A DNA stretch of 64,000 nucleotides from contig NC_135879.1 in the NCBI RefSeq assembly GCF_964194155.1, positions 16,926,001 to 16,990,000 of the forward strand, given 5' to 3'. The DNA is from Cetorhinus maximus. Lineage: Eukaryota. Both the position numbers and the translations under genes were made by a program. How positions within the stretch are numbered: the first letter of the stretch is position 1; the number at the start of each line of letters is the position of its first letter. Positions 3,229 through 47,950 of this stretch are shown one piece after another. The notes under the pieces are model-generated. The model did no database searches and was not told the DNA's origin. It was given only the letters and a program-made list of their open reading frames with translations.

Positions 3229-3338
3229 CTCCTGTAGTCATACTCTCTCCAACATCAGTCCAGAATGTGACTGGTGCCCAAGTCTATCTGGCCTGTGAAG
3301 TGAAAGCTGTTCCAACTCCCATTGTCACTTGGAGGAAG
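3229..3338 (+). CDS. IGFBPL1: IGFBPL1 internal exon (exon 2; start of Ig-like domain)
   Basis: tttcatag|CT acceptor and AAG|gtagga donor; 110 bp, phase 1 to 0. Encodes (A)PVVILSPTSVQNVTGAQVYLACEVKAVPTPIVTWRK, close to IGFBPL1 APVVVVPPRSVHNVTGAQVGLSCEVRAVPTPVITWRK (recalled human sequence). Confidence 0.93.
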
Positions 3339-3859
3339 GTAGGAAAGGACTCAGTTAACATTTTGCCTAATGTCTGTTTGTTCCTTTAGTGAATTAATTC
3401 ACACGAAAGAGGCAGATAGTGATAGATTGAAACAGTCATTTAATTTTCAGGCCTTTTATTCCACTGAAAAAAAACTGTCTTTTGCAGGTTTTAGGCCCAA
3501 AATTTTATGTATTTGTTATTTCAGCATAAAATGCTCTTAAGTTGTGAAACTGTCGCCACTTACCCCTTCGGTATTGCTAAGAAACAAGTCATGGTGCTGG
3601 ATTTCTGCTGAGTCTGCATGACTTGGAAGCCCTTTAAAAGTGGCGGGCAGGAATTCCATGATTCCCAACTCCATTCCCGAGGTTTCCGTTTTTTGAGAGC
3701 GCCTTTTATGGTGCGGGCTGGTTCGGGCCGCGAGCGCGCACTCTGCGCTCCCGACCTGGCCGGCTCCATTGCGGGTATAGGTATGTCCTACTCCTCCACA
3801 ATTTTCATAGAGTCGTTGAAGAGGGTACTCCCTCCAATCCAGCAACTACCACATAGGCC

Positions 3860-4484
3860 AGTTGAAGAGAAGAAATTACAATCCCCGATCACACAGCGAC
3901 CACAGAGACTCAGGCTTCCTTTAACCGGTTTTATTCAAGCATATGCAAGGGAGTCGCAATCATTCCTAAGAATGAAGACCCAGCTCCCTGATTGATTACA
4001 TTTCATTCCTTTTGTACTTTATCTTATCACAATACATTTGAGTACATTTGAATACATTCAATCAGTAACCGACACATCGGTCCATACTAACTCTATCCTA
4101 TTGAGTACATAAACATGTGATTTTGCTAACCAATTATTCTAAAGGATGTATACATACTTATATTATAAAATCAAAATTAAAACACGAATGCAAAGACCTT
4201 GGTTCTTACAACTCAGGACTGTTTGTGTTTCATCAAAGCCCCCTCTCTTTCCATTGTATGTCTTCCCATATCTAAGCTAAAACCATCTGTTCCTTCCCTA
4301 TGTGAGAGGGGAGTACACCTAATCTAATTTTTGTCTTCCAGTCTGACTCTCAAGGCTGTGCAATTTTCATCTGGCAATCTTCAACTCTTAATATGTTTAG
4401 CAGCCATGTCTGCCTGGAGATTTTAAGGTTTTTCAGTAAATTCTTACAGTGTTCTCTTTTAGCATTTTTAATTTTCCCCTAACA
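3860..4484 (-). mobile_element. Probable solo LTR in IGFBPL1 intron 2
   Basis: The minus strand starts TGTTAGGGG and has AATAAAA about 70 bp before its end (...cttcaact); ~625 bp, non-coding. No convincing TSD. Confidence 0.4.
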
Positions 4485-5477
4485 GTCGTGGTTCACGGCA
4501 CCTCAGGGGTGTTGTGAAACATAGTTTGCATGAGGGGATCTTTAAAAAGTTAAGTTCATAAGGTCTCTTCATGCGCCCATATCAAGGGATTGCCCCTCAA
4601 ACAACCCCCATGACCCCTCATGCCCCCATGCCAAGCTATGGCTCTTTCATGCCCATTTAGCCACTAAACGCTGTATGGAACCGATGAAACCTATAGTGAC
4701 AACAGGATGTGTAAAAACACTTTTAAAAGCACAGTCGTTCATTGATAACTTTCTACTTCCTTAAAAAAAACTCATTTTTACTATAGCCCAATAAAAGTAT
4801 CAGTCATCCAGAACCATTAAAGTATCAATAGATGAAACTGAAAGCACTTTAAACCTCTTTATCTTGTATAAATAAACATTGTGAAATTAACAGCATGGAT
4901 CAGGGAGCCAGAGCTGTCAATAAAGTAATGTTTTCCCTGGGGTCAGGTGTTTTAACAAGCTAATGGATTTCTGGGCTCTCAGCCATGCCTCATTACGCAT
5001 TCATGGCTGCCTCCATCTTAGGAGCATCAGCCTAGATATTTGAGCCTAGGTCCTAGAGTCAAACTATGAACCTACAATCTTCTGTCTTAGAGACAAGAAT
5101 GCTACCAACTGAGCCATTGCTGACACCAGATATGAGTGGAGAATGCAGGCAATGATTCTGCTACTTCTTGCTTATCTCTAATATTAGGCATTCAAACTGC
5201 TGATGAGAGACCAGCACCACTTTACCTGAGAGAATTCTAAGGCATAATATTTATTATTAGTCATAAATTATAACATCTTTTAAATTGTAAATTTTTAAGA
5301 TCTCCTAGCTGAATACTGAGTCTGGTGTGAAAGATAGGCCTATATTTTGGATTATATACATCTTTTTGTCCATGCATTGTTCAGATTCCCATTGTGTTGC
5401 TCTGTACTGTATTAGTTCATTATATACTGGTCTTGTTTATCATTTTTATTTATTGTTTATTTATTTGCTGTGAGCAG

Positions 5478-5594
5478 GTCACTGAGTCCCCCAAAGGAAT
5501 AAAGCTTTTGGAGGAGTTGCCTGGAGACCGAGTGAATGTTGCGGTTCAGGTTCGTGGTGGACCATCCAAACATGAAAGCACAGGATGGGTTTTG
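5478..5594 (+). CDS. IGFBPL1: IGFBPL1 internal exon (exon 3)
   Basis: gagcag|GTC acceptor and TTG|gtaagg donor; 117 bp, phase 0 to 0. VTESPKGIKLLEELPGDRVNVAVQVRGGPSKHESTGWVL matches the IGFBPL1 signature LEELPGDHVNIAVQVRGGPSDHEATAWIL. Confidence 0.95.
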
Positions 5595-6827
5595 GTAAGG
5601 AATAAGTTTTACATGAGCTGAGGTTAGGCGACATAAAGAACTGAAACAAGATCAAACTGGACCTTGTAGAACTTGGCAAAATTATACTACAGTATCAATG
5701 CACAACAAAATTCCCAGCAGAGTACATCCTACCATCAATCCTGGCTAGTGCTTTAAGGCAAATCCTGATCCCCAGTGGGAAAACACATTCGATAGGAACA
5801 TGGATCGGAGCTCCCTGTGAGCAGTGCTGTCTGTTAGGGGTCCAGGAGCATTGTGTTAACCTTTACCTAAGAGAGGAAGTTCAGCAGGTAGGAGCAGTTG
5901 TATTAAAAGGTCCACCCAGGTATTTTATGCAGAATGTTAAGATGCAATGAATTTAGAGTTCTCAGGAGAATCTAAGGAAATACATTTCTTCAAAGTAAAT
6001 CCTATTTTTTATATAAGAAAAAGTAACTTGCCTTAAATTCATTTGAGCTGTTCTTGAAAACATTAGTCTTCGATCCCGGTTGGAGATATTGGTTGGGTCC
6101 CTCCTCTTCTCTGCCTCCCCCCAACCACCACCCCACCACATCCCCATCCCCGCTTAGGTAGACGACAGTATCCTACAACTGGGAGTTTTGTGCAAGACTG
6201 ATGTTGCGTGCAGTGACAAGTGGCATGGAGGCATGGACGACCATTTTAACAGTTAAGACCCCACAGTCTAAAAGGATCATGACATGAAAGTAACCCACAG
6301 GTCTATACAGATGATCTATGATCGTGTGTTATTTTAGGGATTCAAATTCAATGTTTTCCAAATCCTGCATTTGCGCCCCCTGATGGTACCTGGCTATAAC
6401 TGCCCCACTCTGGTACCTCTTCACAATGTAATTTACCAGCTTCCTCTCGACAAGGTGTCCAAGACCACGATATTCTCCTACACATGACTCCTTTTAACAG
6501 CACACCAGGAAAGGACAAGGGCACGAGAAACTTATCATTTAGGAAAGAGTGGGATGCTACAATGATAGGACTTCAAGGTGAATGAGGATGAGTTGATGAA
6601 TTTTACATATCAGTAATAATCTTGTCTTAGCTCTGTAATATCAAAGGTTCCCTCTGGCCGTTGTCAATATTGTGATTGTCAAACCTTCATTTTATATTAG
6701 ATGATAGTTTTCAGAGTGATTGCATTGAACTTTATTCTTGCAGAAATCCATGCACCTTACAGTCTAACTCCATTCTTGTTTCTACACATAAAAATATTCC
6801 AAAACTTGCTTTTCAAAATCCTTCCAG

Positions 6828-6945
6828 ATTAATCCACTGACAAAGGAAGATGAAGGTGTCTATCAGTGTCACGCCAGCAATATCCTTGGAGAGGTTCAGA
6901 CGGAAGGTACAATCAAGGTCACTGAAAAACTCCCTAGAGTTAAAG
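6828..6945 (+). CDS. IGFBPL1: IGFBPL1 exon 4 (end of Ig domain)
   Basis: cttccag|ATT acceptor. INPLTKEDEGVYQCHASNILGEVQTEGTIKVTEKLPRVK contains the Ig D-x-G-x-Y-x-C motif and matches IGFBPL1 INPLRKEDEGVYQCHA. Probable donor AAAG|gtatga at 6946; the 3' boundary is less certain. Confidence 0.9.
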
Positions 6946-7955: not shown

Positions 7956-7961
7956 TACATT

Positions 7962-9190: not shown

Positions 9191-10339
9191 GGCTGATTAA
9201 TCCAATATTAATGCCACAATTAACGGATGAAATTTTACAACTCCAATTTTCGATTCAAATTTATCACTTTTATATCTAGGGTGTTTTTTTTTGCGTATGA
9301 AGCTACATTTAGCGTCCGTTAAGGTGTCCTACATTTCTTAAACAAACGGTATTAAGAAAATGTTCTTACACCTTGAGTGAAGCACTGCGTCAGATCGAAA
9401 CCATTTGACAGATTGTCCATCAGGGTGTAATCAGTAAGTTATATCTTTAACACTGTCTGGGGAATTGTCTGGCCTACTCCTCCTGCTCCTAATTCGTAAG
9501 CTCGTATGTTCATTTGAGCTGCTCGTTTCTTTGGAATGCTGTGTAATTAGTCGGCTGTCATTTTTTTTCAGGGAAGAAGAAAGATGGTCATCAAAAGGAA
9601 GAAAACTAAACCCTGACTGACTCCGAATGCTGTCACCATCAACTCCACACTTGATAAACCCTTACACTGTTTTATTAGGGTTAGGTAAAGGTACTGCATA
9701 ACTAACTGAATTGCAAATGATGTATTTTGTACCATTTTCTTCAACTTTTGTAAATTTTTTAAGGGACGGTATAAAATTGTCATGTGCAGAATTTCCAGGG
9801 TTTGTTAATTCAAATGTCTTAGGTTTGTGGGGGCAAAGGGTGAGTCTGTGAGTGTTTAAATCTCACAGCAGCTATGTGAAGCATGGAAACAGGGTGTAAT
9901 AAGGTAGCACTATAACAAGGATAATTAGCTATAGTAAATTATTTCATGCTACATAAACTAATTTTAATCTTTCAGCATCCAGGGTACAATATTTAACTCT
10001 TTAACTACACAATAGGCTTGTTGCCTTCAGTGCTGCCAATAGTCTTTATATAGATTTCTTTGAAAACTGTACTTTTATATTTTTACTGAATTTTACCTTC
10101 AATTTTGCTGAACTAACAAGGTGGAACTTTTGCAACTACTGAGTTCCCATCTATAATTTTAATGAAAATTACTACCTGTAAGTTAGTGGGTACCGCATTG
10201 CTCTGTTACTGGCAGTAACCCGCTGTAACTTAACCAGCATGGAGGCTTTCAACAAGAATTCTTGAAGCTATGTGAAATATAACTGCTATGTGCATACCAA
10301 TTCAGCCATCTTTGTTCTGTATTCATTATGAAATGTTTT

Positions 10340-10345
10340 AATAAA
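10340..10345 (+). promoter_or_regulatory. Candidate polyadenylation signal for IGFBPL1
   Basis: AATAAA followed by T-rich sequence at the end of the putative 3' UTR. Confidence 0.3.
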
Positions 10346-10823
10346 TATCTTTATTCCTCTTCAGAAGATTTTCCCTTTTATTAACCAATTTTGAGTTCTT
10401 ACTTAATTTTCATTTTCACTCTTTGAAATAACCCTTATCACCTCTAGCAGAAGGAGGTGAGACAATGAACGTCTTGGCTCTTTGTTACTCTGGCTATTAC
10501 CAATTTAATATGCTTAGCCTAAGCTTATGCTCCATTGCGAGAAAACAAGGCGAAGAGTCTAGGATATCACCATTGGACATCATCAATGTTGGAAAGATGA
10601 AAGAGAAGATATAGGAACATGGGAGTGTAGGAAGACCACATGAGATCATTGCAGCCCACCTAGATGATCCCAAGGTTTATAAAAGCATGGTACGCTATTC
10701 CACCTCTCATAGTTGAAGAATCTTCAAATTTTCTCTAACAACTCAAAAGAAATTTACCGAACCTGAAGAGGCCATTGTGGTGTATCTGCTTGGAAGGTCA
10801 AAGTTAATCAGTGAGATTCAGGG

Positions 10824-10953
10824 AGATAAAGGCAAAATACTGTGGATGCTGGAAACCTGAAACAAAAACAGCTCTGAAGAAGAGTCATACAGACTCAAAA
10901 AGTTAACTCTGCCTTTCTCTCCACAGATGCTGTCAGACCTGCTGAGTTTTTCC
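10824..10953 (+). mobile_element. Penelope-like terminal-repeat fragment with decayed hammerhead motif
   Basis: gcaaaatactgtggatgctggaaa / ccacagatgctgtcagacctgctgag; 10-bp direct repeat agattcaggg at 10814-10823 and 10954-10963. Confidence 0.65.
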
Positions 10954-10960
10954 AGATTCA

Positions 10961-11345
10961 GGGTGGCTTATTGATAATGTCACTAGACTAGCAATCCAGA
11001 GGCCCAGGCTAATTCTCTGGGGACATGGGCTCCAATCCCACCATGGCAGCTGGTAGAATGTAAGTTCAATTAATAAAACCTATAATTAAAAGCTAGTCTC
11101 AGTAATAGTGACAAGAAACCATCATTAATTGTTATAAAAACTCATTTGGTTCACTAACATCCTTAAGGGAAGGAAATCTGCCATCCTTACCTGGTCTGGC
11201 CTACATGTGACTCCAGATACACGGCAATGTGGTTGCCTTTAACTGCCCTCTGAAATGGCCTAGCAAGTCACTCAAAGGCAATGAGGGATTGGTAACACGT
11301 GCTGGCCTTGGCAGTGACTCCCAATTCCCATGAAAGAATATTTTT
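10961..11345 (+). mobile_element. tRNA-derived SINE (family S1, sharing its 3' tail with LINE family A)
   Basis: B-box-like ggctccaatccc; body ggaaggaaatctgccatccttacctggtctggcctacatgtgactccaga; tail aaggcaatgagggattggtaacacgtgctggcc. Confidence 0.8.
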
Positions 11346-12647
11346 TTTTTAGAAAATCAGCGAGCTGACATTCAGCTGAGATTTTAACACTGAAGATTGC
11401 AGGAAGAAGAAAAGATTGAGAGCGGTATAAGAAGTCCCACAGTTTAAAATCCTGGTTTACAAAAAGGCAACTACCTTGGTGAGTTGGGGAGGCCTCTGTT
11501 CTGTCATACACCTCCAATTTATCCTTGCCTTTGAAGTGTATCTTAACAATGTCTATCATGTGTTCAATATCTACTTAGGACACACAATCCAGAGGAAACA
11601 ATCAAAAACTGCCCAAAGCTTCAAGAAAGCTGACACAGCCACGAAAAAGCTAACAGCTCAAAAATCAGTCTAACTATAGGATATGTGCAGACAAGTAACT
11701 AAACTGAATATACAAAAACACAGGGATCCCCAATTGGTTGCAATTTTTAAAAAATGACCCACATCTTCAGAAGCTGGCAGAGTGACATTAGACATTGCTT
11801 TAGCCTTTAGCAGACAAACAGGTTTATTAAATAATAATTGAACAAGTAAATAGTAGTGGCAACACAACATGCAAGGGCTAATTTTCCTACGACATGAACA
11901 TGGATACATGCAATTCCCAGACACAAGGCAGAGGGAAAATTAATGGAGACTCATTGCACCATATCTGTTCCCAATATGCAGCACCAAGTGATTTTCTGAG
12001 GATCTTACGGGTTGGGGGATGGAGTCTAGCAGGGTCTTCTCCCTGTTGGACCACTGATGGGCAGTAGTCCATTGGAAGAACATCTAGCAGGAAGTGGTCA
12101 GTATTCCCAGCCACACTAGGATCGGAGCATCGGAGGGCAAGAAAGAAACGGAAAGCAAAGAAAGTAAGTGAAACGTTTTTGTTTCATGGGGCTAACAATT
12201 AGATCCTTGGGGCTAGAGTTTTTGTGTGGACAGCAGCCAGAAATTCAGAAGAGATTAACACCCCCCACCTCCTGCGCCACTAAGAGGGGCACCTGTTGCT
12301 AAGCAGCATTGGGCCATTAATGACCTGAAGCCACAAAAATGTCTGCCACAAGTCAGATGAACTGAAGTGTATTTTGAGTGACTAATGCCATGGCAGAGGA
12401 AGGAAGGAAAATTGGGGCTATATTTTTTCATAGAAATTGTTAAATTTTACTCGTTCCTTGCATAGTAGAAAATAATAGAGTTTGATGAAATGTTGACACT
12501 AAGGCCGTTGGCGGCGGGTGTCAAGACCGGTGTGGATTTTTTTTTGTTAATCAAAGAACCATCGCTTGCTGCTTCTGCTCTCCTTGGAGAATTCAGTGTA
12601 CCCACCTCGTTTCTTTTTGTCACTCTGTGGGGATAGAAAACCTTCAG

Positions 12648-12720
12648 TGCCCAGACAAGGACTGGAACCCTGGACCCTTAAATCAAAAGTCTGATATTCT
12701 ACTGACTAAGCCACCAAGAA
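12648..12720 (-). pseudogene. tRNA-Lys(UUU) pseudogene
   Basis: The minus strand reads TTCTTGGTGGCTTAGTCAGTAGAATATCAGACTTTTGATTTAAGGGTCCAGGGTTCCAGTCCTTGTCTGGGCA. It aligns gap-free over 73 nt with vertebrate tRNA-Lys(UUU) GCCCGGATAGCTCAGTCGGTAGAGCATCAGACTTTTAATCTGAGGGTCCAGGGTTCAAGTCCCTGTTCGGGCG (about 18 mismatches by hand count). Stems are disrupted; a TTTT terminator lies just downstream. Confidence 0.8.
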
Positions 12721-13891
12721 TTGCAGCGGACAATATTGCGAGAAGGCCAAAAATTGGTTTTACGCTATCGTGAAACCAGTTTGCGATCATCCGCTCTGCC
12801 TGTCAACGGCGGGCCGCATTTCCCACCGTCCAGCGTCGGGAGCTTAATTTTAATGCATTTGCATCTCATCATTGTGGCCGCATGCCGGAATCATCCCCCC
12901 CCCCCCCCCCCAAGTCAAATTTACCTCTCATGTCAGTGTAACTTCAGAACAGCGTGATTTACAACTGCCTTTAAAAGGCATGCTCCTGTCGAGCTGAACT
13001 CGGAGGTGGGTGCACACATCCTTGCGCGGTGCTCAAGGATCGCTCATATGACATCAAGGGATATGCGCCGCGCATTCGTTATGGCGGTGGGGGTGGAGGG
13101 GGGTGCACAGGCAAGTCCATTTTTCCCGGCTGGCTTTCGGTGTGGTGCCAGGGCAAGGGCTCCAGTGCGTGTGGGGCTGGGGTAGGGGTGGCAAGGCAGC
13201 ACAGACTGAAGGAAGTACACAAGCACATGCCAGTGGTGGGGGTGAGGGAAGTGACCACACACTTGGAAAAGTTTGTTAAAAGTGAGCATTCTCCCGCAGC
13301 TGAGACCATTCAGCTTCAGCTCCATTGACAGACTTGGAGTTCGGCCTCTGAAGCATTTCTGCCCCACTCAAGCAACGCAAAAGCATAGATGTAGCGCCAA
13401 ATGCTCCAGAACTTTTCACCCTCGGGCACAGACTGCAAACTAAGGTGCATTTTAGGGGGCAGCAGAATAATTGGATGACTGGGCAAGTTGTAGAAAACCC
13501 TTGCGAAAGGTGGCCACAGCACAGTCACTGATGGAGGCGCTCAGAGCACCTTGCAATGTCTGTATTAAGGTTTGGAGTAGTATCCCTCATGGCTCAAACT
13601 AACCGCGCAGCCTTGCAGTGTGGGTTAGGAGAATGCCTGCGCCTGAGCTGAGAGCACAGCATTCAGTCCAGTGGCCGAAGCTGCCGCCAATCGCTCAAGT
13701 GGAGCGGGGCAGAGGTGGGTGGGGGTTCAGACAGCCATGAAGTGCACTACACACTGGCCATCCAAATGGTGGCCACTCTTCAGCATATTTGAAGGGCCCT
13801 TGAGGCTTAACTAAGAGAGAGGTTTCTTAGTACACTCATGCTAACCCATGTGTCTGTCTCTTTGGTCCTGCAGGAGGAGGACATCAGGATC

Positions 13892-15115
13892 ATGGAGCCT
13901 GGTGATTTAGTGGTATGCCTCGTGGCTGACAGGGAGCAGAGAAGGAGAAGAGTACGACAGAGGCGCCTGGCTCACCAATGAAAGGAGCAACAACCTCAGG
14001 ATGAAGGTGCAGCAGGGCCTCCTGCGCATGAAGCTGAAGATCCACAGCGAGCTGTCACTGATAGATGCCTTGCTAGACCCAGAGTCTGTAGATGGCTCTT
14101 GTCATTCAGGCAGATGTCTGAGAACCAGTGTCGCTGAAGACTGCATACGTCTAGGGAACTGGTCAGTCACATATGCCAACTGCTGCAGCATTTGACGCCA
14201 CAGGGACATGGAGGGCATCCACTGACAGTGGACTTGAAGTCACCACGGTGCTCAATTTTTACGTCAGTGACTCCTTCCAGGACTCCACAGGTGACCTGTG
14301 CGGGATCTCACAAGCCTCCACCCACAACTGCATCCAGGAGGCCACAGGCACCATCTTCGTGAAGGCACAGAACTTTGTGCATTTCACCCAGGATCAGGAA
14401 AACCAGGAAATAAGAGCACTGGGATTTGCGGCAATCTCTGGTTCTCCAAAGGTGCAGGGTGCCATTGACTGCACTCACATGGCACTTAGATCTCTGTGGC
14501 AACAAGGAGTCAACTGTATCAACTGCAAGGGCTTCCACTCGTTCAGCTGGTCTGCGACAACCACAAACGCATCCTACAGGTCTGTGCACGATTCCCAGGA
14601 AGCGTCCACGACCCCCACATCCTTAGGAGGTCTCAGATCCCTGGCATCCTCCAGGGTTCAGAGGCTGCAAGGTTGGCTCCTCAGGGTCAAGGGCTACCCA
14701 CAGAGGAAGTGGCTGATGACAGCCCATGTGGCGGTCTTAGACTGCAGCAGAGAGATGGTACAACAAGGCTCATACCGCAACCCAGACTCTGGTGGAGCAA
14801 ACTATAGGCAAATTGAAAATGAAGTTCTAGTGCCTCAACAGGTCTTGTAAAGCACTACAATACAGTCGCCAGAGGGCGTTACGCATCATCCTATCTTGCT
14901 GCACTCTACACAACCTGTCACTGGACCTGGCTGAGGAGGAGATGGAAGAGCTGCACATATCCTTCAATGAGGAGGACATCAAAGGTGATGAGAGTGATGA
15001 GGTCCTTGAGGGCGAGGGTGTCAGTGATGAGGCCATCGCACTGGCCAGACCAGGTAGGCACGCTCGTGAGGTCCTAATAGCCACAAGATTCGTGGAGGAT
15101 GACGAGATGCAGTGA
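13892..15115 (+). pseudogene. Harbinger (HARBI1-like, DDE_Tnp_4) transposase, frameshifted
   Basis: Motifs GDLCGISQ, VQGAIDCTH, NCKGFHS, VQLVCD, ARFPGSVHD and WLLRVKGYP (from LLGDKGYP) are spread over three frames with stops; acidic C-terminal tail. Confidence 0.9.
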
Positions 15116-16316: not shown

Positions 16317-16329
16317 CTACATCTTCCTA

Positions 16330-27360: not shown

Positions 27361-27457
27361 GCAGGAAGCAGGTTTCCCCACAGAACAGAAGAAGGGGGCC
27401 CGGAGAAGACCTTCTAGTCAAAGGGAAAGAACAGGAAGCTGGAAAAGGTGGTGGTGC

Positions 27458-28035: not shown

Positions 28036-28039
28036 TGGC

Positions 28040-36760: not shown

Positions 36761-38831
36761 CCCCCCCACCCACCCCCTTTTCACATCCTCAGGGCATTCT
36801 GAAGTGTTTCACAGCCAATAAATAACATTTTTGAACTATGACACCAACCGCCCCCCTTCCCCTCCACCACCCCCACCCCTACACCCCCTCCCCAGAGGAA
36901 AACAGTCACTCACTGGGATTTTCACAGAAGCGTCCCCTTAATTGGTATGGAGACAGTTTTCCTGTCCAATTAAGGGCAGTGAGCGAACTCACAAAGTTGA
37001 AAGGGTCAATCAGAGGCCTTTCTGATTGAGAGGGACAGCACGCTGTAATAGAGGGTAAGTAACTGAGAGGATGCTTCAACTTTGGAGGTGCTCTCTCACA
37101 TCATTTTTAAAATTATATTCAAAAAACAAAAAGCAGCTGTGTCTACATGTTGGTTTGTGGGGAAGGTGGTGGGAATTCCTCTACAGGGCATTCTTTGGCA
37201 GGGAAGGCAGGGTGAACCTTTGGTCTTGCCTGGAGCACTGGCCTCCACAGGCTGCCCCTGGGTGCTTGCCACCAGGCGGTTAAACTGGGGAACTGGAAAC
37301 CAACCGGAAAATCCCAGTCAGCATCCTTTAATGGCTGTTAACAAGGGTCTTAATCAGGCTAATTTGCTAGCCCCTTCATGGTGGCATGTACCCCTGCCAG
37401 CCCTGAACCCACCTTGGCAAAAATGGCTAGCGCTGGGAACAGGGTTGGAAAACCGGCGTGTCATCCGGTGCCGGTATTTTCGGGTCATGTCTGCCTCTGC
37501 TCAGTGGGGCCCAAAGATTCTGCCCATAGTCTCTGTTGCATTAGAGTCTGAGCAGTGCACACTTACCTGAATGTGGCAATTCTGTGTTGCCAACTGTTCT
37601 CTGCACTTTTAGAGAAATAATTCCAGCTGCTGTCCTCCATGTCATGCACTAAGTTTAATTGGACATAGATCCCTGCTCAATGCCACTCTAATCTCTTCCA
37701 CATGGCTGGAAAGTCTCTGTATGTCTCAGGCCCATCTAACATCAAACTATTTATATACCACTATGTAGTTTTACTTAGGTTGCTATCGTACTTACCCATG
37801 GATTGATTTTAGAGTCTTTAGAAATTGCCACTCAGATTATGTGAAGTAATCCTGCCTTGGTCTATGCAGCCTTTCAACTGACTATGATGCCTGAACATTT
37901 TCTTTCCCCTCTTTTGAATTTCCCATTTATCCAAGAGAACAGGAGGCATCTGCAGCAAGGAATAGCGTGCAAGATGGTTTGCAAAACTGACTACGTTCTT
38001 CTGCTAAAAAGTGATTAAAAGTGAGCTCAGATATCACTTCATGAGGCTATAAGTTCCTTGAGCAATACTAACTGAAGAATGCTTAATGCGCTCCTTCTGC
38101 CATCTAGCTTAACGCTACCATGGCCAGGATTTTTCTTCCCCACCGCGGTGTGTCTCCCCCTGGTGGATGCAGTGAGCCATTTAAATCTCCATTCAGTTCG
38201 ATGGGACCATAATATCTCGTCGGGTGGGAGGGGCCATAAAATCCTGGCCCATACATCCAATTATTTTTAAAAGGGATAGGGCTGCCATTAGAACGTCAGG
38301 CAGATAAATCACCAGCATCAATCTCTGGCCTATAGTAGAATTAGAGTTTAAAAACTCAGGCTGGGAAATTCTTCAGTGTATGTCAATCCCGCTCTCTGCG
38401 TTGTTTTACCCAAAGTTCTTTGAAGTAATTTGGCTGAGCAGGAACTTCTCTGAGAAATCAGCAAACCTTGATCATGACAAACTTTCTAAAGTCAGTGCAA
38501 TTTTACTCTCAATTGTTGGCTACATTGGACTAATTGATCAATCGTAGATATTTGTCACTATTTTGAATCCTTATTAGTATGGTGATAGTTCATGGTTGTA
38601 GCTCACTGATAGAACTACTATTATATCACAAGGTACTGGGGGCATGATTAATTTCTCAACGCTTTGAAAATATGAGTCACAAGAGTCTACTTGGATTGGA
38701 TTAGAACACAGATTAACAGCACTAATAGGATTGTCTTTTAACCTACCACACTCCAGACCACACAAACGTACCAAGTATCACATTGTCTGTCTCTCAATTA
38801 GCACGTGTCTCTGGATGGAAGTGAAAATATT

Positions 38832-40050
38832 TTTTTTTGCAAAAATATACTTTATTCATAAAATATCTTCAACCACATTCCAAACCATTTCAAAAACACC
38901 ATTACAAGGATACAATCCGGTTCAACTTTAACAAAATGTATCACCAGGTGCATCAGTACAAACAATATTACAATCATTTACAGCCTTTCATTTTGAGCTG
39001 TACAGCCCGAGGGGATTTAAACAGTTCCCAGCCCCTCGGTGCGCTGTGGCAGAAAGGTCTTAGACAGCGACCCTTCCCCATTGCGCCTTTGCGGCAGCTG
39101 CCCCAAGCTTTAGTGCGTCCCTCAGCACGTAGTCCTGGACTTTGGATTGTGCCAGTCTGCACCACTCGGTCGGGGACAACTCTTTGTGCTGGAAGACCAA
39201 CAAGTTTCGGGCAGACCAAAGCGCTTCTTTCACCGAGTTGATGATCCTCCAGCTGCAGTTGATGTTTGTCTCGGTGTGCGTCCCTGGGAACAGCCCGTAG
39301 ATCACAGAGTCCTGTGTCACAGAACTGCTCGGGATGAACCTCGACAGCAACCACTGCATCTCTCTCCAGACCTTCTTTGCAAAGGCACAATCCACAAGAA
39401 GGTGAACAACGGTCTCTTCCCCACCACAGCCACCTCGAGGGCAACGTGCAGAGGGGGTGAGACTCCTGACGTGTAGGAAGGATCTGATGGGGAGGGCCTT
39501 TCTCACCACCAGCCAAGCCACGTCTTGGTGCTTGTTGGAAAGTTCTGGCGATGAGGCATTCTGCCAAATGACTTTGACAGTCTGCTCGGGGAACCATCCC
39601 ACAGGATCCACCCTCTCCTTTTCTCTCAGGGCCTCTAAGACGTTACGTGCTGACCACTGCCTGATGGACTTGTGGTCAAAGGTGTTTTTCTGCATAAATT
39701 TTTCCACCAGGGACAGGTGGTACGGCACGGTCCAACTACTTGGAGCGTTCCGCGGCAGCGTGGCCAGACCCATCCTTCGCAACACCGGGGACAGGTAGAA
39801 CCTCAGCACATAGTGACACTTGGTGTTTGCGTACTGAGGGTCTACGCACCGCTTGATGCAGCCATACACAAAGGTGGCCATCAGTATGAGGGCGATGTTG
39901 GGCACGTTTTTTCCCCCTTTATCTAGAGGCTTGTACATCGCGTCCCTGCGGACACGATCCATTTTTGACCTCCAGGTAAAGCGGAAGATGGCTCGAGTGA
40001 TCGCCATCGCGCAGGAGTGTGGAATGGGCCAGACCTGCGCCACGTACAGC
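38832..40050 (-). mobile_element. Tx1/L1-clade LINE, 5'-truncated, recent
   Basis: Uninterrupted 330-aa ORF2 C-terminus with zf-RVT (CPRGGCGGEETVVHLLVDC), AATAAA and poly(A). Perfect 13-bp TSD aagtgaaaatatt at 38819-38831 and 40051-40063. Confidence 0.93.
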
Positions 40051-40399
40051 AAGTGAAAATATTCTGGTTTTCACTAGCCCATAATTTGTTATAGCAGGAC
40101 ACCTAATGGCATCTGCTGTTAGTTAGTTAGACTTGCTCATGCACGTTTAGATTTTAATTTTTTTTTTCGTGTGGCAAGTTGCGGAAAATGTCAGCTGATA
40201 ATGTCAGGGAAACAAGGCATCTGGGACCTTAGTGAGCTGAGCAAACAACTGTGTATATCCTTAACCAACCAGATTGAAGGATTGCAAAATTAACAGTATG
40301 AGGACTGAGAAAGAAATGTAAATTGAAGTGGGTGGATTCAATGTCAAATCAGGTACAGAAAGAAAACTAAAAAGGTGGAAATAAAGATTGGATTGAAAA

Positions 40400-40655
40400 A
40401 CAAAAGAGAATCAGAAAAAAACATTTTCACACAAGAGGTTCGAGTCTGGAATGCACTGCCTGGAAGTATGGTGGAGGTAGGTTCAATCGAGGCATTCAAA
40501 AGGGCATTAGATGATTATTTGAATAGAAACAAGGTGCAGGGGTACGGGGAAAAGGCAGGGCAGTGACATTCAGTCACAATGCTCATTTGGAGAGCCAGTG
40601 CAGACACAATGGGCCGAATGGCCTCCTCCTGTGCCATTAGATTCTGTGATTCTGT
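40400..40655 (+). mobile_element. CR1 LINE 3' end
   Basis: NIFTQ.VRVWNALP; tail gggccgaatggcctcctcctg...attctgtgattctgtga. Confidence 0.8.
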
Positions 40656-41699
40656 GAAAGGAAAAGTAATGAAAAATAAATTTTACATTTCTAAAATCTC
40701 CAATAACAAATAAACCCTGAAGGAATGAGAATCTACACTTGTCATAGTCAATTTACAATACCAGAAGGGTTGATTGGTGGCAATTAACACTTACCACATT
40801 ATTTAAAGGGTACGCAGCAAAGCTTAATTTTTGTGGCAAGTTTTGTTTTTGCCTACCATACAAGTATGGGAACATTATGCCACCCCACACGTTTCAATAG
40901 TGAGTCAGACAGTGAGGTGCCATTCTTTCAGGTTTTAGAAATCCGCAATGGGTGACCAAAAAGTTGATAAAAAGGGAAAATATAGAACATGAGAATAAAC
41001 TAGCAAAGAATATGAAAACAGATTGTACAAGCTTTTACAATTATGCAAAAAGGAAGGTAGTTAAAGAAAACATTTGACCATTAGAGACAGAAACAGAAGA
41101 AATTATAATAGGGAATGAGGAAATGACAGAGACATTGAACAAATATTTTGTTCTGTCTTCATGGTAGAAGACACAAATTACATATCAGAAATAGAGAGTA
41201 ACCAAGGGGCTAATATAAGTGAGGAATTGAAAATAATTAATCCCAGCAGAGAAAAGGTATTATATAAATTTAAGGGACTAAAATCTGACACATCCCAGGA
41301 TCTGATGGCCTACACCCTAAGGTTCTAAAAGAGGTAGCTACAGAGATAATGGATGCACTGGTTATGATTTTCCAAAATTCCTCAGAGTCTAGACAGTCCT
41401 AATAGATTGGAAGTTAGTAAATGTAAAATCTCTATTCAAGAAAGGAGAGAGAAAACAAGAAACTACAGGCCAGTTAGCCTAACATCAGTCAATCCAAAAA
41501 TGCTAGAATCTATCTTTAAGGAAGCCTTAACAATGCACTTAGAAAATCATTGTATGATCAATCAGAGCCACCATAATTTTATGAAAGGAAAAACATGTTT
41601 GACAATTTTATGAGAATTTTTTGAGGATGTAGCTGGTAGGGTAGATAAAGAGGAACCAGTAGATGTAGTAGATTTGAATTTCTAAAAGGCATGCTACAT

Positions 41700-42870
41700 A
41701 TTTTTTTTATTCATTCATGGCTTGTGGGCTTCGCTGGCTGGGCCAGCATTTATTGCCCATCCCTAGTTACCCTTGAGAAGGTGGTGGTGAGCTGCTTTCT
41801 TGAACTGCTGCAGTCCATCTGGTGTAGGTACATCCACAGTGCTGTTAGGGAGGAAGTTCCAGGGTTTTGACCCAACAACAGTGAAGGAACGGTGATTTTT
41901 TCCAAGTCAGGATGTGAGTGACTTGGAGGGGAACTTCCAGGTGGTGGTGTCCCCATCTATCTGCTGATCTTGTCCTTCTAGATGGTAGTGGTCGTGGGTT
42001 TGGAAGGTGCTATCGAAGGAGCCTTGGTGAATTCCTGCAGTGCACGTTGTAGATGGTATACACTGTGCGTCGGTGGTGGAGGGAGTGAATGTTTGTGGAT
42101 GTGGTGCTAATCAAGTGGCCTGCTTTGTCCTTGACAGTGTCAAGCTTCTTGAGTGTTGTGGGAGCTGCACTCATCCAGGCAAGTGGGGAATATTCCATCA
42201 CATTCCTGACTTGTGCCTTGTAGATGATGGACAGGGTTTGGGGAGTCAGGAGGTGGGTCACTCGTTGCACGATTCCTAGCCTCCGACCTGCTCTTGTAGC
42301 CACAGTATTTATATGGCTAGTCCAGTTCAGTTTCTGGTCAATGATAACCCCAGGATGTTGATAGTGGGGGATTCAGTGATGGTAATGCCATTGAACATCA
42401 TGGGGCGATGGTTGGATTCTCTCTTGTTGAATGTGGTCATTGCCTGACACTTGTGTAGCACAAATGTTACTTGCCACTTGTCAACCCAAGCCTGGATATT
42501 GTCCAGGTCTTGCTGCATTTGGACATGGACTGCTTTAGTATCTGAGGAATTGCGAATGGTGCTGAACATCGTGCAATCATCAGCGAACATCCCCACTTCT
42601 GACCTTATGATGGAAGGAAGGTCATTGATGAAGCAGCTGAAGATGGTTGGGCCGAGGACACTACCCTGAGGAACTCCTGCGGTGATGTCCTGGAGCTGAG
42701 ATGACTGACCTCCAACAACCACAACCATCTTCCTTTGTGCTAGGTATGACTCCAACCAGTGAAGAGTTTTCCCCCTGATTCCCATTGACTCCAGTTTTAC
42801 TAGGGCTCTTTGATGCCACACTCTGTCAAATGCTGCCTTGATGTCAAGGGCAGTCGCTCTCACCTCACAT
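41700..42870 (-). mobile_element. CR1-group LINE family A with RT domain, nested in a CR1 family B copy
   Basis: LDIKAAFDRV...GVPQGSVLGP...FADD RT motifs, with a complete 3' tail. Confidence 0.92.
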
Positions 42871-43099
42871 TCATTCAATATGATCACCTCCATATGACAG
42901 GTTAATATGCAAGATAAGAGGTCATGGAGTTAGAATAATATATTATTGTGGTTGGAGGACTTGTTAACAAACAGGAAGCAGGGAGTAGGGAAAAATGGGG
43001 CACTTTCATTTGGCAGGTAACTAGAGAAGTGTCACAAGGATCAGTGCTGGGTCTTCAGCTATTTACCATCTATATTAATAATGCCTTGCATTTATAGGA

Positions 43100-44220
43100 T
43101 CATAGAATAGTTTCAGCACAGAAGGAAGCCATTCAGCCCATCATGTCTTTGCTGGTCCTCAGAGGGAGCAATTCACCTACTGCCACTCTCTTGCCTTCTC
43201 CCTGTAGCCCTGTAAATTTTTTTCAGATAATGATCCAATTCCCAAGTCCCTCTGCTCCTGCACCCCCCTTGGAATTGAACCATTTATTTTTAATTGTTTG
43301 TCTGCAGTGTTCCTGCCAAATTGCATCACTTCACACTTCTCTGCATTAAATTTCATCTGCCACTTTCATTCTACCAACCTGTCTATGTTCTTTTGAACTT
43401 CTACACTATCCTCCTCATGGTTCACATTACTTCCAAGTTTTGTATCATCCTCAAATTTTGAAATGGTGCCTTGTACACCAAGGCCTAGGTCATTAACATA
43501 TATCAGGAAGAGCAGGGATCCTAACACTGAACCCTGGGGAACTCCACTATATACCTTTCTGCAGGCTGAAAAACAACCGTTCACCACTACACTTTGTTTC
43601 CTGTCACACAGCTAATTTTGTATCCATTGTGCTACCGTCCCTATCATTCTATGAGCTCTGACTTTGATCACAAGTCTGTTGTGCAGTACTTTATCAAATG
43701 CCTTTTGGAAGTCCATGTATACCACATCAACAGCATTAGCCTCATTAATCTTCTCTGTTACCTCACCAAAAATCTCAAGCAAATTAGTTAAACATGATTT
43801 GCCTTAACAAATCCATTGCTGGCTTTCCTTAATTAGCCCGCATTTGCCCAAGTGACTTAATCTCGTTCCAAATCATTGTTTCTAAAAGCTTCCTCACCTC
43901 CAAGATATAACTGACTGGTCTGTAGTTTCTGGGTTTACCTTTGTACCTTTTTCTGAACAACAGCGTAGCATTTACAATTCTCCAGTCCTCTGGCACCACT
44001 CCTGAGTCTAAGGAAGATTGGAAAATTATGGCCTGTGTCTCCGCATTTTCCACGCTCAATTCCTTCCGTATCGTTGGATGCATCTCACCTGATCCTGGTG
44101 TCTAATCAACTTGAGTACAGACAGCCTATTCAATGCTTCCTCCTTATCAATTTTAAACCCTGCAAGTTTCTTAACTGCTTCCTCTTTCACCATGACCTGG
44201 ACAGCATCTTCTTCCTTGAT
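43100..44220 (-). mobile_element. CR1 LINE, nested, minus strand
   Basis: EDWRIVNATLLF..NYRPVS, GVPQGSVLG, KFEDDTK; atcatagaat tail. Confidence 0.88.
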
Positions 44221-45384
44221 AATAAAATGCTTTTCACCACCACTAGACATCTCAAAATGCTTTATAGCCAATGATGTGCTTTTGAAAAGTAGTCACTATT
44301 GTAAAGTAGGAAGAACAGCAGCCAGCAGCAAAGCCAGGTGGAAGTTAAGCTCTGAGGGGGTTGAAGAGGCTGCAAATAGTTATAGACTGTTTAACAAGGT
44401 GGCAGATGGACTATAATGTGGGGATGTGTGAGGTTATTCACTTTGACGAGAAGTATAGAAAAGCAGAATATCTTTTAACAGGTATGAAACTTCTAAGTGT
44501 TGATGTTCAGAGAGTCTTGAATGTACTTGCGCAAGGAGCACAGAAGGTTAGTATGCAGGTACAGCAGACAATTAGAAAGGCAAATGGCATGTTAGCCCTT
44601 ATTGTAAGAGGGTTGGAGAACAAGAATTAGAAAGTCTGCAACTGTATAAGGCTGTAGTGAGACCACACCTGGAGTACCATGTGCAGTTTTGATCTCCATA
44701 TTTAAGGAAAGATATACTTACTTTGGAGGAGATACAAGGAAGATTCATTAGGTTGGTTCCGGGGATGAGATGTGGAGAAATTTCTTCATTCAGAGGGTTG
44801 TGAATCTTTGGAACTTTCTCCCCCAGAGGGTTGTGAATGCTCCATCACATATGTTTAAGGCTGAGGTGGACAGATTTTTGGTCTCTCAGGTATTAAGGGA
44901 TATGATGTACGGGCAGGATCAACCATAATCATATTGAATGGCAAAGCAGGCTTGAGGGACTGTATAGTCTACTCCTGCTCCTATTTCTTATATCGTTAGG
45001 TTATTCGCCTCATCGTTATTTTGACAGCAAATTATGAACCATTATTTCTCTTTAGCCTTTTTCCCAATATGCAGTCTTGTCATACTTGGGGTTACCAACT
45101 CTGGTTCTAGGTATTCCTGGGGCTATGATATGTAGCATTTTAACAACAACATGTCTGCCAGTGTTATTGCATTTAGATTTTGCAGCGATTGGGTCCTCTG
45201 CAGTTGAGCATCTTTTTGGTTTCATGCCAGCATCTGTTGTACAAGAAGTACTAAAAACCAGGAAGTCACCCATGAGCAGATGAAGAAGAGAAGCTGAGAG
45301 CAAGAAAGAGGGGAAACTGAAGGCGGCGGAATGATTTACAGGGAGGAAACCAGAGATGGTTTCCTAGTGTGCTCTGTTCTGGAG

Positions 45385-45750
45385 TCGCATAGTGGTAATT
45401 TCACAGGACTTGTAATCTAGAAGCTAGGCTAATGTTTTGGGGATACAGGTTCAAATCCCACTGTGACAGCTTGTAGAATTTAAATCCAATCAATAAAATC
45501 AGGAATTGAAAGCTAATCTTAGTGATGGTGACCATGAAACCTATCATTGATTGTTGTAAAAAAAACCCAACTGGTTCACTAATGCCCTTTCGTGAAGGAA
45601 ATATACCATTCTTACCTGGTCTGGTGTACATATGACTCCAGACCCACAGTGATATGACTTAGCAAGCCACTTAGTTCAAGAGCAATTAGGGATGGGCAAT
45701 AAATGCTGGCCTTGTCTGCGATGCTCGTATCCTGTGAAAGGATAATTTTT
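45385..45750 (+). mobile_element. SINE family S1
   Basis: ggttcaaatccc B box; tail gcaattagggatgggcaataaatgctggcc. Confidence 0.85.
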
Positions 45751-46039
45751 TAAAAATGTAATTAATGACTTGGATGAAGGAATAGAGAGTTGTATATCCA
45801 AGTTCACATTGTTAGAAATGATAGTAAGTCGTGCGGGATAGAAGCAGGACATTGCAAAAGGCAAAAATTGAGTGATCAAATCTATGGAGTTCGATGTGTA
45901 CAAATGTAAGGTAGAAAGCTTTTAAGAGTTGATTTTCAACAATGCAGCTGAACAGCAATATCGTGACTGTTACTACTTTGGACTGGCAAAAGATAGACCA
46001 CAGCCACAAGGAAGGAGTGAATATATATGATGGTGGATG

Positions 46040-46320
46040 GGATGTCAATAAAGTAGGATGACAAATCCTGGATGATGTCAAGCTACTTGAGTATAGTTGG
46101 AGCTGCACTCCTCCATGCAAGTAAAGCGTATTCCATCATTATAGATGGTGGACAGGTTTTTGGGAGTCAGGAGGTGAATTATTTGCTGCAGAATTCCTAG
46201 CCTCTGAAGCAGGCTCTTCTAGCCATAGTATTATGTCTGGTCCAGTTTTCAGAATGTTGATGATGGGAACTTCAGAGATGTTAATGCGTTGAATGTCAAG
46301 GACAGGTTAGGGTCTCTCTT
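46040..46320 (-). mobile_element. CR1-group LINE family A fragment
   Basis: Diverged match (ggagctgcactc...ggagtcaggaggtg...attcctagcctctga). Confidence 0.7.
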
Positions 46321-46387
46321 ATATAGTTTAAATCAAAAATACTGGAAATACCCAGCAGGTCAGGCAGCACCAGTGGAGAGAGAAACA

Positions 46388-46424
46388 AAGTTAATGTTTC
46401 AGGTTGATGACCTTTCATCAGAAT
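46388..46424 (-). ncRNA. Minimal hammerhead ribozyme motif (PLE-type), partly decayed
   Basis: The minus strand reads CUGAUGA-A-AGGU(cauca)ACCU-GAAAC-AUUAACU, within a Penelope-type repeat (about 46335-46425). Confidence 0.5.
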
Positions 46425-46619
46425 AGTTCTAGTTTACACCAGTTTGATATCAGTCAGGTATTAGTATGCAGGTCTGAAATTTGTATTGGATTTAAATTAT
46501 TGCACTATTAGCCAGATATTAACCAGAAGTGAGCTCATGCAAGTTTGATAGTGATATACAAGTCTCAGATCAGTATGAACTCAGTCTTATTTCTGTCAGA
46601 CACTGCTTCATAGCACGAT

Positions 46620-47057
46620 TATTTTATGAGGAGAGATTGAGGAAACTGAGCCTGTATTCTCTAAAGTTTTAAAATAAGAGGTGATCTCATTGAAACTTAC
46701 AAAATTCTTACCGAGTATGACAGGGTAGATGCAAAAAGTATGTTTCCTCTGGTGGGTCTAGAACCAGGGGACACAGTCTCAGAATAAGGGGTAGGCCATT
46801 TAAGACTGAGACGAGGAGGAATTTCTTCACTCAGAGGGTGGTGAATCTTTGGAATTCTTTATCCCAGAGAGGCTGTGGAAGCTCAGTCATGGAGCATGTT
46901 CAAGACAGAAATCAGTGGATTTCTGGCTACTAATGACATCAAGGGATTTGGGGATAATGCGGGGAAATGGTGCTGAGGTAGATGATCAGCCATGATCTAA
47001 CCGAACAGCAGAGAAGGCTCAATGGGCCGAATGGCCTTCTCGTGTTCCTATGTTCCT
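46620..47057 (+). mobile_element. CR1 LINE family B 3' end
   Basis: gaggtgatctcattgaaac...ttcttcactcagagggtggtgaatctttggaattc; tail tgttcctatgttccta. Confidence 0.85.
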
Positions 47058-47136
47058 AGTCTATTGACATTAGTTTTAGTCAGATAATTTAATATCAGTT
47101 AGATATTATATAGGTTTATTTGAGTTGGTGTATACG

Positions 47137-47450
47137 GGAGTTTAACTTGTGTGAATTGGAGTTTAACTTGCCTGAACGAGAATTTAGCTCGGTTCAGATT
47201 GTGAGAATGGGAGTTTAGTTTAACTTGTACCAATAGGAGTTTAGTTTAACTTGTACCAATGGGAGTTTAGTTTCGTTTGTATGAATTGGAGTTTCGTTTA
47301 ATTTAACTTGTATGAATGAATGAGAGTTTAACTTAGTCTGTGTGAATGGGAGTTTAGTTTAACTTGTGTGAATTGGAGTTTGGTCTGTGTGGATAAGAGT
47401 TTTAGTTTGTTTCGATGGGATATGAGCTCCTCTCAATGGGAGTATAGTTT
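47137..47450. repeat. Degenerate ~22-26 bp minisatellite (aatgggagtttagtttaacttgt...)
   Basis: About 10 diverged units; near-identical 26-mers at 47211-47236 and 47237-47262. Confidence 0.85.
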
Positions 47451-47470
47451 GGGTGGAGCCTGAGTTTCTG

Positions 47471-47476
47471 TATAAG
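47471..47476 (+). promoter_or_regulatory. TATA-like box of the IGFBP7-like gene
   Basis: TATAAG followed by GGGC, 56 bp upstream of the ATG, with a GGGTGG box just upstream. Confidence 0.5.
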
Positions 47477-47526
47477 GGGCCCCCGGGTCTTCTAGGTTGG
47501 AGTTATTTGCCAAGTTTACTGTCAGG

Positions 47527-47950
47527 ATGGGTTTGCAGTTGCTGGGTGGGCTCCTGTTGCTCCTTGCGGTGGATGTGGGAGGGAAGTCGGGCAGGGCGAA
47601 ATGCCCTCCCTGTGCGCTGTCCGAGTGCCCGGCTCTGCCCCCGGGAGGCTGCCCTTTCGGGGAGCTGACCGACCCGTGCCGTTGCTGCACCGTGTGCGCT
47701 GCCGGCGAGGGAGCGCCTTGCGGCGGCCTCGTGTCCAAGTACGGCCGCTGCGCCCAGGGCTTCGAGTGTGTCCGCTCCAGGAGCAAGCGGAGGAGCCCCG
47801 GGCGCTGCCTCTGTAAGTTCCCCCAGCAGGTTTGTGGCAGCGACGGCATCACCTACAGGGATGGCTGTGAACTGAGAGCCGCAGCGAAGCGGGCGGAGAG
47901 GCAGGGAGAGACCCCAATCACCAGGACTGGGAAAGGAGCCTGTGAGACAG
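47527..47950 (+). CDS. IGFBP7-like gene, first coding exon (signal peptide + IGFBP domain + Kazal domain)
   Basis: ATG in good context (aggATGG), hydrophobic leader MGLQLLGGLLLLLAVDVGG, and 16 Cys in IGFBP7 spacing. ...DPCRCCTVCAAGEGAPCGG...ECVRSRSKRR...VCGSDGITYRDGCELRAAAKRAERQGETPITRTGKGACET parallels IGFBP7 VCGSDGTTYPSGCQLRAASQRAESRGEKAITQVSKGTCEQ. Phase-1 donor ACAG|gtgaga; CpG-rich. Orthology versus paralogy is unresolved, so no symbol is given. Confidence 0.92.

What the first reader, a model, noticed from the sequence alone, without database searches (positions are those of the whole stretch)
3229..47950. IGFBPL1 directly followed in tandem by an IGFBP7-type gene: possible retained ancestral pair or an unrecognised IGFBP7 paralog
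Seen: IGFBPL1 Ig exons at 3.2-6.9 kb and, ~40 kb downstream on the same strand, an intact exon 1 whose IGFBP+Kazal sequence resembles IGFBP7 (ECVRSR..RR, CELRAAAKRAERQGE, KGACE) rather than IGFBPL1. No other recognisable host gene lies between them. Known: human IGFBP7 (4q12) and IGFBPL1 (9p13) are unlinked members of the IB-Kazal-Ig family, with KAZALD1. Inference: the two subfamilies may have arisen by tandem duplication before the vertebrate genome duplications, with reciprocal loss in bony vertebrates. This gene would then be an IGFBP7 ohnolog retained in cartilaginous fish; its divergence (KFPQQVCGSDG vs KSRYPVCGSDG) fits that.
Basis: partly seen in the sequence, partly recalled or inferred. 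Interest (0 to 1): 0.75.

Follow-up and report, generated by a model that had tools for sequence, protein, structure and literature searches.

The report
Sharks keep ancestral IGFBPL1-IGFBP7 gene pair
Two related growth-factor-binding genes, IGFBPL1 and IGFBP7, which sit on different chromosomes in humans, lie side by side in this shark and on one chromosome in other sharks and rays, which likely preserves the ancient side-by-side duplication that made them; the second gene is most likely the ordinary IGFBP7, not a hidden extra copy.

Summary
Both genes are complete, with five exons each and the same intron phases. They lie 38 kb apart on one strand, with no gap and no other gene found between them. 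The 'unrecognised paralog' reading fails. The downstream gene is the only IGFBP7 found in the genome. It matches an NCBI-annotated IGFBP7 letter for letter, falls in the IGFBP7 clade and ends about 560 bases from the stop of POLR2B, a human IGFBP7 neighbour. It is not a misassembly: 16 of 16 other sharks and rays have both genes on a contig of one length, and 4 of 11 give near-consecutive record numbers. Hagfish has both genes; each lancelet and tunicate cluster seen holds one type. Best reading: an early-vertebrate tandem duplication kept in elasmobranchs. IGFBP7-POLR2B later moved beside REST-NOA1, which in this shark lie on another chromosome. Adjacency in jawless fish is untested.

The parts
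3229..3338 (+). IGFBPL1 exon 2 (110 nt, start of Ig domain); exon 1 is outside the window at G000:C1:16878907-16879387
   Evidence: AG/GT flanks; five-exon translation identical to P0014, which NCBI names IGFBPL1
5478..5594 (+). IGFBPL1 exon 3 (117 nt)
6828..6945 (+). IGFBPL1 exon 4 (118 nt)
9572..9609 (+).
9610..47526 (.). 37.9-kb spacer, mostly repeats and transposon remains; no host gene found
   Evidence: 58% of 7100-47400 masked as repeat; 0 of 126 remaining frames hit Pfam; no N
47527..47950 (+). IGFBP7 exon 1 (424 nt: hydrophobic leader, IGFBP and Kazal domains; phase-1 donor)
   Evidence: 96% identical to white shark IGFBP7 P0002
47951..64000 (+). Start of IGFBP7 intron 1. Exons 2-5 follow beyond the window at G000:C1:16993194-16993303, 16996687-16996803, 16999034-16999142 and 17001020-17001036; the POLR2B stop is at about 17001599 on the other strand

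Best explanation
The window holds the end of IGFBPL1 and the start of a complete IGFBP7, likely the shark's single ordinary copy, and their head-to-tail position is likely the surviving state of a tandem duplication in early vertebrates that humans later lost when IGFBP7 likely moved away together with POLR2B. Steps: (1) shown: two complete five-exon genes with the same intron phases (1,0,0,1) and the same lengths of exons 2 and 3, followed by POLR2B tail to tail. (2) Shown indirectly: the same linkage across sharks and rays. (3) Inferred: one chordate IGFBP-Kazal-Ig gene was copied in tandem before hagfish and jawed vertebrates split, and extra genome-duplication copies were lost. (4) Inferred: on the line to humans the IGFBP7-POLR2B block moved next to NOA1-REST, and IGFBPL1 stayed near EXOSC3. 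(5) From known family biology, untested here: both are secreted IGF- and insulin-pathway modulators; nothing here shows shared regulation.
For: Gene models identical to P0335 and P0014, all introns GT-AG. One locus of each type among 15 and 10 matches; the rest are HTRA-, KAZALD- and CRIM1-type. The best other exon-1 match leads into protease exons. RPB2 exons adjoin; stop to stop about 560 bases. Both genes on a contig of one length in 16 of 16 other elasmobranchs with data. Consecutive locus tags chiPu_0005752/5753 in bamboo shark; accessions within 3 in 4 of 11 species. Separate IGFBP7 (99-100) and IGFBPL1 (95-100) clades, each with hagfish. The two genes are 43% identical, so this is no recent duplicate. 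EXOSC3, a human 9p13 gene (position recalled), lies 650 kb upstream of shark IGFBPL1. REST and NOA1 lie together on contig C2 with no IGFBP7 or RPB2 trace in 550 kb; a latrophilin I read as ADGRL3 is also on C2. A chance landing beside its closest relative in a 4-Gb genome is far less likely than a retained pair (inference).
Against: No outgroup shows the pair: adjacency in hagfish, lamprey or chimaera could not be tested. 7 of 11 species have distant accession numbers; that is weak, since this genome's own adjacent genes differ by 88-103. The 79-row tree joined shark and jawless-fish IGFBP7 (100/94) against bony fish and tetrapods; two smaller trees did not repeat this. The neighbourhood is a mosaic. 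Other genes near IGFBPL1 in mammals (positions recalled) are elsewhere: POLR1E and a TMOD1-like gene on C2, a CCDC180-like hit on C10. The 4q12 gene PAICS is on C1, 130 Mb away. SHB was not found, in a partial scan. Lancelet and tunicate rows leaned to the IGFBPL1 side (91/64 and 97/78), so the duplication could be older than vertebrates. The unlinked state rests on human papers and echidna contig lengths.
Confidence: 0.8

Rival explanations
1. Hidden paralogy: the block was doubled in a whole-genome duplication; sharks kept one copy of IGFBP7-POLR2B and bony vertebrates kept the other.
For: Shark IGFBP7 grouped with jawless-fish IGFBP7 at 100/94, and shark IGFBPL1 with hagfish at 99/76, in the largest tree. 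The shark and human neighbourhoods differ beyond POLR2B.
Against: The grouping changed in two further trees, and a jawed-vertebrate IGFBP7 clade is not rejected (p-AU 0.196 and 0.17). No second copy or relic was found. It needs paired reciprocal loss of two genes, one of them essential. 4q12 and the JUN/HOOK/ADAMTSL-type region are not duplicates of each other (recalled), so a move is needed anyway.
Confidence: 0.07
2. Secondary meeting: IGFBP7 and IGFBPL1 arose apart (for example as first-round genome duplicates), and IGFBP7-POLR2B moved next to IGFBPL1 in the shark and ray ancestor, so the human REST-NOA1-POLR2B-IGFBP7 block is the older state.
For: The split predates hagfish, which fits the first genome duplication in time. 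Shark C1 and C2 are reshuffled mosaics. No outgroup adjacency is available.
Against: It needs a chance landing on the same strand within 38 kb of the closest paralog. No IGFBP7 or RPB2 relic was found at the supposed donor site.
Confidence: 0.1
3. Artefact or recent event: a misassembly, a misplaced IGFBPL1 exon 1, or a recent IGFBPL1 duplicate.
For: None found.
Against: Each gene has its own five exons in order. No N in the window or the flanking stretches counted. Same linkage in 16 other species. 43% identity and separate clades.
Confidence: 0.02

Closest known systems
Vertebrate IGFBP7 (IGFBP-rP1/Mac25; PDB 9zhh at E 2e-93; human chr 4 locus with NOA1, REST, POLR2B, PMC8417822 passages)
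   Same: IGFBP-Kazal-Ig protein, IGFBP7 clade, single copy found, POLR2B beside it; 51-64% identity to IGFBP7 of hagfish, lamprey, sturgeon, bird and mammals.
   Different: Its 5' neighbour is IGFBPL1; NOA1 and REST are on another chromosome; beyond POLR2B come a THAP1-like gene, a JUN-family gene and a HOOK gene.
Vertebrate IGFBPL1 (human 9p13.1; 43% identical to IGFBP7, PMC4868013 passages)
   Same: Same domains and clade; also 43% identical to its IGFBP7; EXOSC3 within 650 kb.
   Different: Followed directly by IGFBP7; preceded by an ADAMTS-like (THSD4-type) gene; exon 1 carries an acidic insert.
Kazald gene quartet (PMC12955574, passages)
   Same: Same three-domain family; that paper calls Igfbp7 a chordate innovation, found in lancelets and Clavelina.
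   Different: The Kazald paralogs came from the two genome duplications, whereas IGFBP7 and IGFBPL1 appear to be a tandem pair with one survivor each. The main text never mentions IGFBPL1 (0 occurrences).

Membership tests
IGFBP7 (orthologue) | IGFBP, Kazal and one Ig I-set domain in one protein | tested here: met
   Pfam on exon 1 and on P0002; gene model identical to P0335
IGFBP7 (orthologue) | Falls inside the IGFBP7 clade, apart from IGFBPL1 and KAZALD | tested here: met
   99/99, 100/99 and 100/100 (96% identical P0002 as stand-in; own protein P0335)
IGFBP7 (orthologue) | POLR2B as direct neighbour | tested here: met
   human locus in PMC8417822; human tail-to-tail orientation recalled
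IGFBP7 (orthologue) | NOA1 and REST next to POLR2B, as in human (supporting feature, not part of the gene's definition) | tested here: not met
   REST and NOA1 at G000:C2:139.61-139.72 Mb
IGFBP7 (orthologue) | Branches with bony-vertebrate IGFBP7 as the species tree predicts | tested here: inconclusive
   Three trees gave three arrangements; clade not rejected, p-AU 0.196 and 0.17
IGFBP7 (orthologue) | Binds IGF1R, insulin or CD93 | not testable with these tools
   IGF1R binding per PMC4868013 passage; the other partners recalled
IGFBPL1 | Same three domains and place in the IGFBPL1 clade with tetrapod and hagfish members | tested here: met
   100/97; 95/94; 100/100; the IGFBP domain scores 23.7 bits, below Pfam's cut-off of 28
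IGFBPL1 | Human 9p13-type neighbours | tested here: inconclusive
   EXOSC3 650 kb away; POLR1E and TMOD1-like on C2, CCDC180-like on C10; SHB not found in a partial scan; mammalian positions recalled
Genome-duplication paralog (ohnolog) of IGFBP7 | A second IGFBP7-type locus or relic in the same genome | tested here: not met
   genome searches score only the best candidates
Genome-duplication paralog (ohnolog) of IGFBP7 | Lies in a region paralogous to human 4q12 | not tested
   No bony-vertebrate or lancelet genome could be searched; by recall the regions belong to different ancestral linkage groups
Retained tandem duplicate | Adjacent, same strand, shared exon layout | tested here: met
   phases 1,0,0,1 in both; exons 2 and 3 are 110 and 117 nt in both; no gene found between
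Retained tandem duplicate | Linkage shared by distant relatives | tested here: met
Retained tandem duplicate | Adjacent in an outgroup (chimaera, hagfish, lamprey) | not testable with these tools
   Hagfish records of both genes carry no position; no chimaera or lamprey IGFBPL1 row was listed

The most novel reading that the evidence does not exclude
The IGFBPL1-IGFBP7-POLR2B block of sharks is the pre-duplication vertebrate arrangement, and the shark and jawless-fish IGFBP7 and RNA polymerase II subunit B genes descend from a different genome-duplication copy than those of bony vertebrates. A 'single-copy' core polymerase gene would then be a hidden paralog across jawed vertebrates.
Probability: 0.07. 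Interest if true: 0.6.

Novelty: new member of a known kind. Interest (0 to 1): 0.3.

Why it matters
It gives a simple origin for the IGFBP7/IGFBPL1 split, a local tandem copy rather than a genome-duplication pair, unlike their Kazald relatives. It also marks a rearrangement that brought IGFBP7-POLR2B beside REST-NOA1, a human disease-association locus (PMC8417822). Both genes are already annotated in many sharks, and sharks keeping old gene order is a known pattern (my knowledge), so this is a modest comparative-genomics note, not new biology. Five searches with both gene names (and 77 for IGFBPL1 with its locus) found no paper on the pair; the library lacks most subscription journals.

Tried and rejected
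Second IGFBP7 at G000:C21:15.6 Mb: rejected, it continues into HTRA protease exons. Prediction that SHB flanks REST on C2 (which would mean one ancestral five-gene block): not borne out, a long coiled-coil gene that I read as CENPE by recall lies there (no Pfam hit). STRA6-family search: one locus on C31 under a stricter first look, uninformative. Search for the gene 5' of NOA1: none recognised in 240 kb. Scan for genes between EXOSC3 and IGFBPL1: 122 of 4034 unmasked frames sent to Pfam (145 top-ranked, 23 transposon-like dropped), 2 hits, so absence of SHB is not shown. Rhea contig lengths for the two genes differ by only 1,271 bases, so I did not count Rhea as unlinked. RefSeq accession distance as a negative test: rejected, because this genome's own adjacent genes differ by 88-103. 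Sequencing-run search: no RNA holder listed; no read-level view of splicing was obtained. PDB holds no REST match for the large exon; REST was named by Pfam PF24540. The protein atlas was not available for that exon. Paper searches returned nothing; two returned association studies. Earlier findings of this scan: none near; eight unrelated notes by words.
Full report
Observation. Exon 1 is 47 kb upstream of the window. The downstream exon, 47527-47950, encodes 141 residues with IGFBP and Kazal domains. Its exons 2-5 start 3 kb past the window's end. With GT-AG introns throughout, the two models translate exactly to P0014 and P0335, which NCBI names IGFBPL1 and IGFBP7 of the basking shark. Both have intron phases 1,0,0,1 and exons 2 and 3 of 110 and 117 nt, yet they are only 43% identical. 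In the spacer, 0 of 126 non-repeat frames of 45 aa or more hit Pfam; 58% of it was masked as repeat and not scanned.

Is it a hidden extra IGFBP7? Three own-genome searches gave 7, 15 and 10 matches, with one IGFBP7-type and one IGFBPL1-type locus. The others are three HTRA-type, two KAZALD-type and one CRIM1-type gene, named by eye from their translations. The best-scoring of them runs into protease exons and has no convincing Ig exon within 100 kb. These searches score only the best candidates, so a very decayed copy could be missed. The RNA polymerase II RPB2 gene lies on the other strand, with its stop about 560 bases from the IGFBP7 stop. A human association paper lists NOA1, REST, IGFBP7 and POLR2B at one chromosome 4 locus (PMC8417822, passages). 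A case report places IGFBPL1 at 9p13.1 (PMC4868013, passages).

Trees. I built three: 79 of 308 proteins held, then 31 and 33 of 341, chosen as near-full-length rows spread over lineages. Each gave an IGFBP7 clade (99/99, 100/99, 100/100) and an IGFBPL1 clade (100/97, 95/94, 100/100), both with hagfish members. Inside IGFBP7 the order is unstable. Sharks joined jawless fish at 100/94, were unresolved, and sat with amniotes and jawless fish at 90/87. A jawed-vertebrate clade was not rejected (p-AU 0.196 and 0.17), which does not prove it. Lancelets and the tunicate Clavelina each gave one cluster of this type. They leaned weakly to the IGFBPL1 side. PMC12955574 (passages; supplements not opened, and its Table S2 may list loci that bear on this) also finds Igfbp7-like genes only in chordates. 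PMC5823240 (passages) treats the three genes as homologs and does not discuss their positions.

Other species. In 16 of 16 other sharks, skates and rays where both proteins had a contig length, the lengths were equal. Six more species had one gene only or no contig: sawshark, zebra shark, Mustelus, two stingrays and the chimaera. The brownbanded bamboo shark has consecutive locus tags, chiPu_0005752 and 0005753, on a 3.9-Mb scaffold. Accessions differ by 3 or less in 4 of 11 species with both listed. The other 7 say little, because this genome's own adjacent genes differ by 88-103. Echidna has the genes on contigs of different length; Rhea is ambiguous. No ray-finned fish IGFBPL1 was among the best 120 of 353 rows, while many ray-finned IGFBP7 rows were. 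That hints at a loss but does not show one. Hagfish has both genes and lampreys have IGFBP7, without usable positions.

Neighbourhood. On C1 the order is EXOSC3 (16.22 Mb), an ADAMTS-like gene (exons seen at 16.74-16.78 Mb), IGFBPL1, IGFBP7, POLR2B, a THAP1-like gene, a JUN-family gene, a frame I read as RNF170 by recall, and a HOOK gene. REST and NOA1 lie tail to tail on C2 at 139.61-139.72 Mb. A CENPE-like gene (recalled) is on one side and 240 kb without a recognised gene on the other. No IGFBP7, IGFBPL1 or RPB2 trace was found in 550 kb there. A latrophilin whose C-terminus I read as ADGRL3, the next large gene beyond human IGFBP7 (recalled), is on C2 at 151 Mb. So the human flanks of POLR2B-IGFBP7 share a shark chromosome that lacks this block. 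The picture is not tidy. POLR1E and a TMOD1-like gene are on C2 at 134-137 Mb, a CCDC180-like hit is on C10, and PAICS is on C1 at 147 Mb. SHB was not found in a partial scan. Mammalian positions of these markers are recalled, not from a call.

How it most likely came about. One chordate IGFBP-Kazal-Ig gene was copied in tandem before hagfish split from jawed vertebrates (inferred from trees, adjacency and shared exon layout). One copy of each gene survived the genome duplications. Elasmobranchs kept the linkage (shown). On the line to humans, IGFBP7 and POLR2B moved together beside NOA1-REST and IGFBPL1 stayed near EXOSC3 (inferred; one move). When this happened is open: amphibians, lungfish and coelacanth could not be tested. 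A secondary meeting in sharks (about 0.1) needs a chance landing beside the closest relative. Hidden paralogy (about 0.07) needs paired loss of two genes plus a move, and rests on one unstable branch. Nothing here shows that the two genes share regulation; their protein function is taken from the known family.

Verdict. Searches for both names with shark, synteny, tandem duplication, lamprey or paralog (listings seen, three of the papers read in passages) found no report of the pair. Interest 0.3.

Noticed in passing
G000:C1:17065429-17072852 (L037, L038): A JUN-family bZIP gene that seems to have an intron (second frame hits Pfam Jun and bZIP; first exon read by eye), about 130 kb from a HOOK gene. 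It may be the fourth JUN duplicate, matching the JUN-HOOK1 and JUNB-HOOK2 pairs (recalled) and lost in mammals.
   Followed up: partly
G000:C2:139606848-139719081 (L157, L121, L128): REST and NOA1 are tail to tail but not next to POLR2B, so the human head-to-head NOA1-POLR2B pair (recalled) does not exist in this shark.
   Followed up: yes
protein search: No ray-finned fish IGFBPL1 among the best 120 of 353 rows, while sharks, hagfish and tetrapods have it; possible loss in ray-finned fish.
   Followed up: no
G000:C5:86117300-86118100 (L158): An intronless EXOSC3 copy with an open frame of 265 codons, besides the spliced gene at C1:16.22 Mb; probably a young retrocopy.
   Followed up: partly
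G000:C1:16738175-16782800 (L055, L058, L059): ADAMTS-like gene (spacer, cysteine-rich and TSP1 exons; THSD4/ADAMTSL4-type by recall) directly upstream of IGFBPL1; perhaps a duplicate that humans lack.
   Followed up: partly
G000:C21:15615785-15646200 (L008, L072-L075): A third HTRA with IGFBP-Kazal leader on the same contig as an HTRA1-like gene and a KAZALD gene; probably HTRA4, which PMC5823240 reports in elephant shark.
   Followed up: partly
L016:1444-1924 (IGFBPL1 exon 1): A glutamate-rich insert from a GA-rich repeat between the IGFBP and Kazal domains; the protein is 287 aa here and in white shark, 271-276 aa in most other sharks.
   Followed up: no
window 47130-47400 and 48020-48800: Short degenerate repeats just upstream of the IGFBP7 start, and an 800-base purine-only stretch just after exon 1.
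   Followed up: no
window 56005-56418: Fragment of a Tc5/pogo-type transposase inside IGFBP7 intron 1.
   Followed up: no
G000:C1:17083000-17117000 (L039-L042): About 33 kb of a short-unit satellite between the JUN-family gene and the RNF170-like frame.
   Followed up: no
G000:C1:16115280-16115669 (L196): Weak homeodomain match, E 2e-4, below the curated cut-off.
   Followed up: no
G000:C2:139796000-139803300 and 139910000-139922300 (L136, L137, L214, L215): Fragmented retroelement-like open frames (by eye) in the gene-poor stretch 5' of NOA1; observed only.
   Followed up: no
In three bamboo and epaulette sharks the pair lies on contigs of 45-107 Mb, against 140-390 Mb in other elasmobranchs; possibly a chromosome fission in that family.
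   Followed up: no
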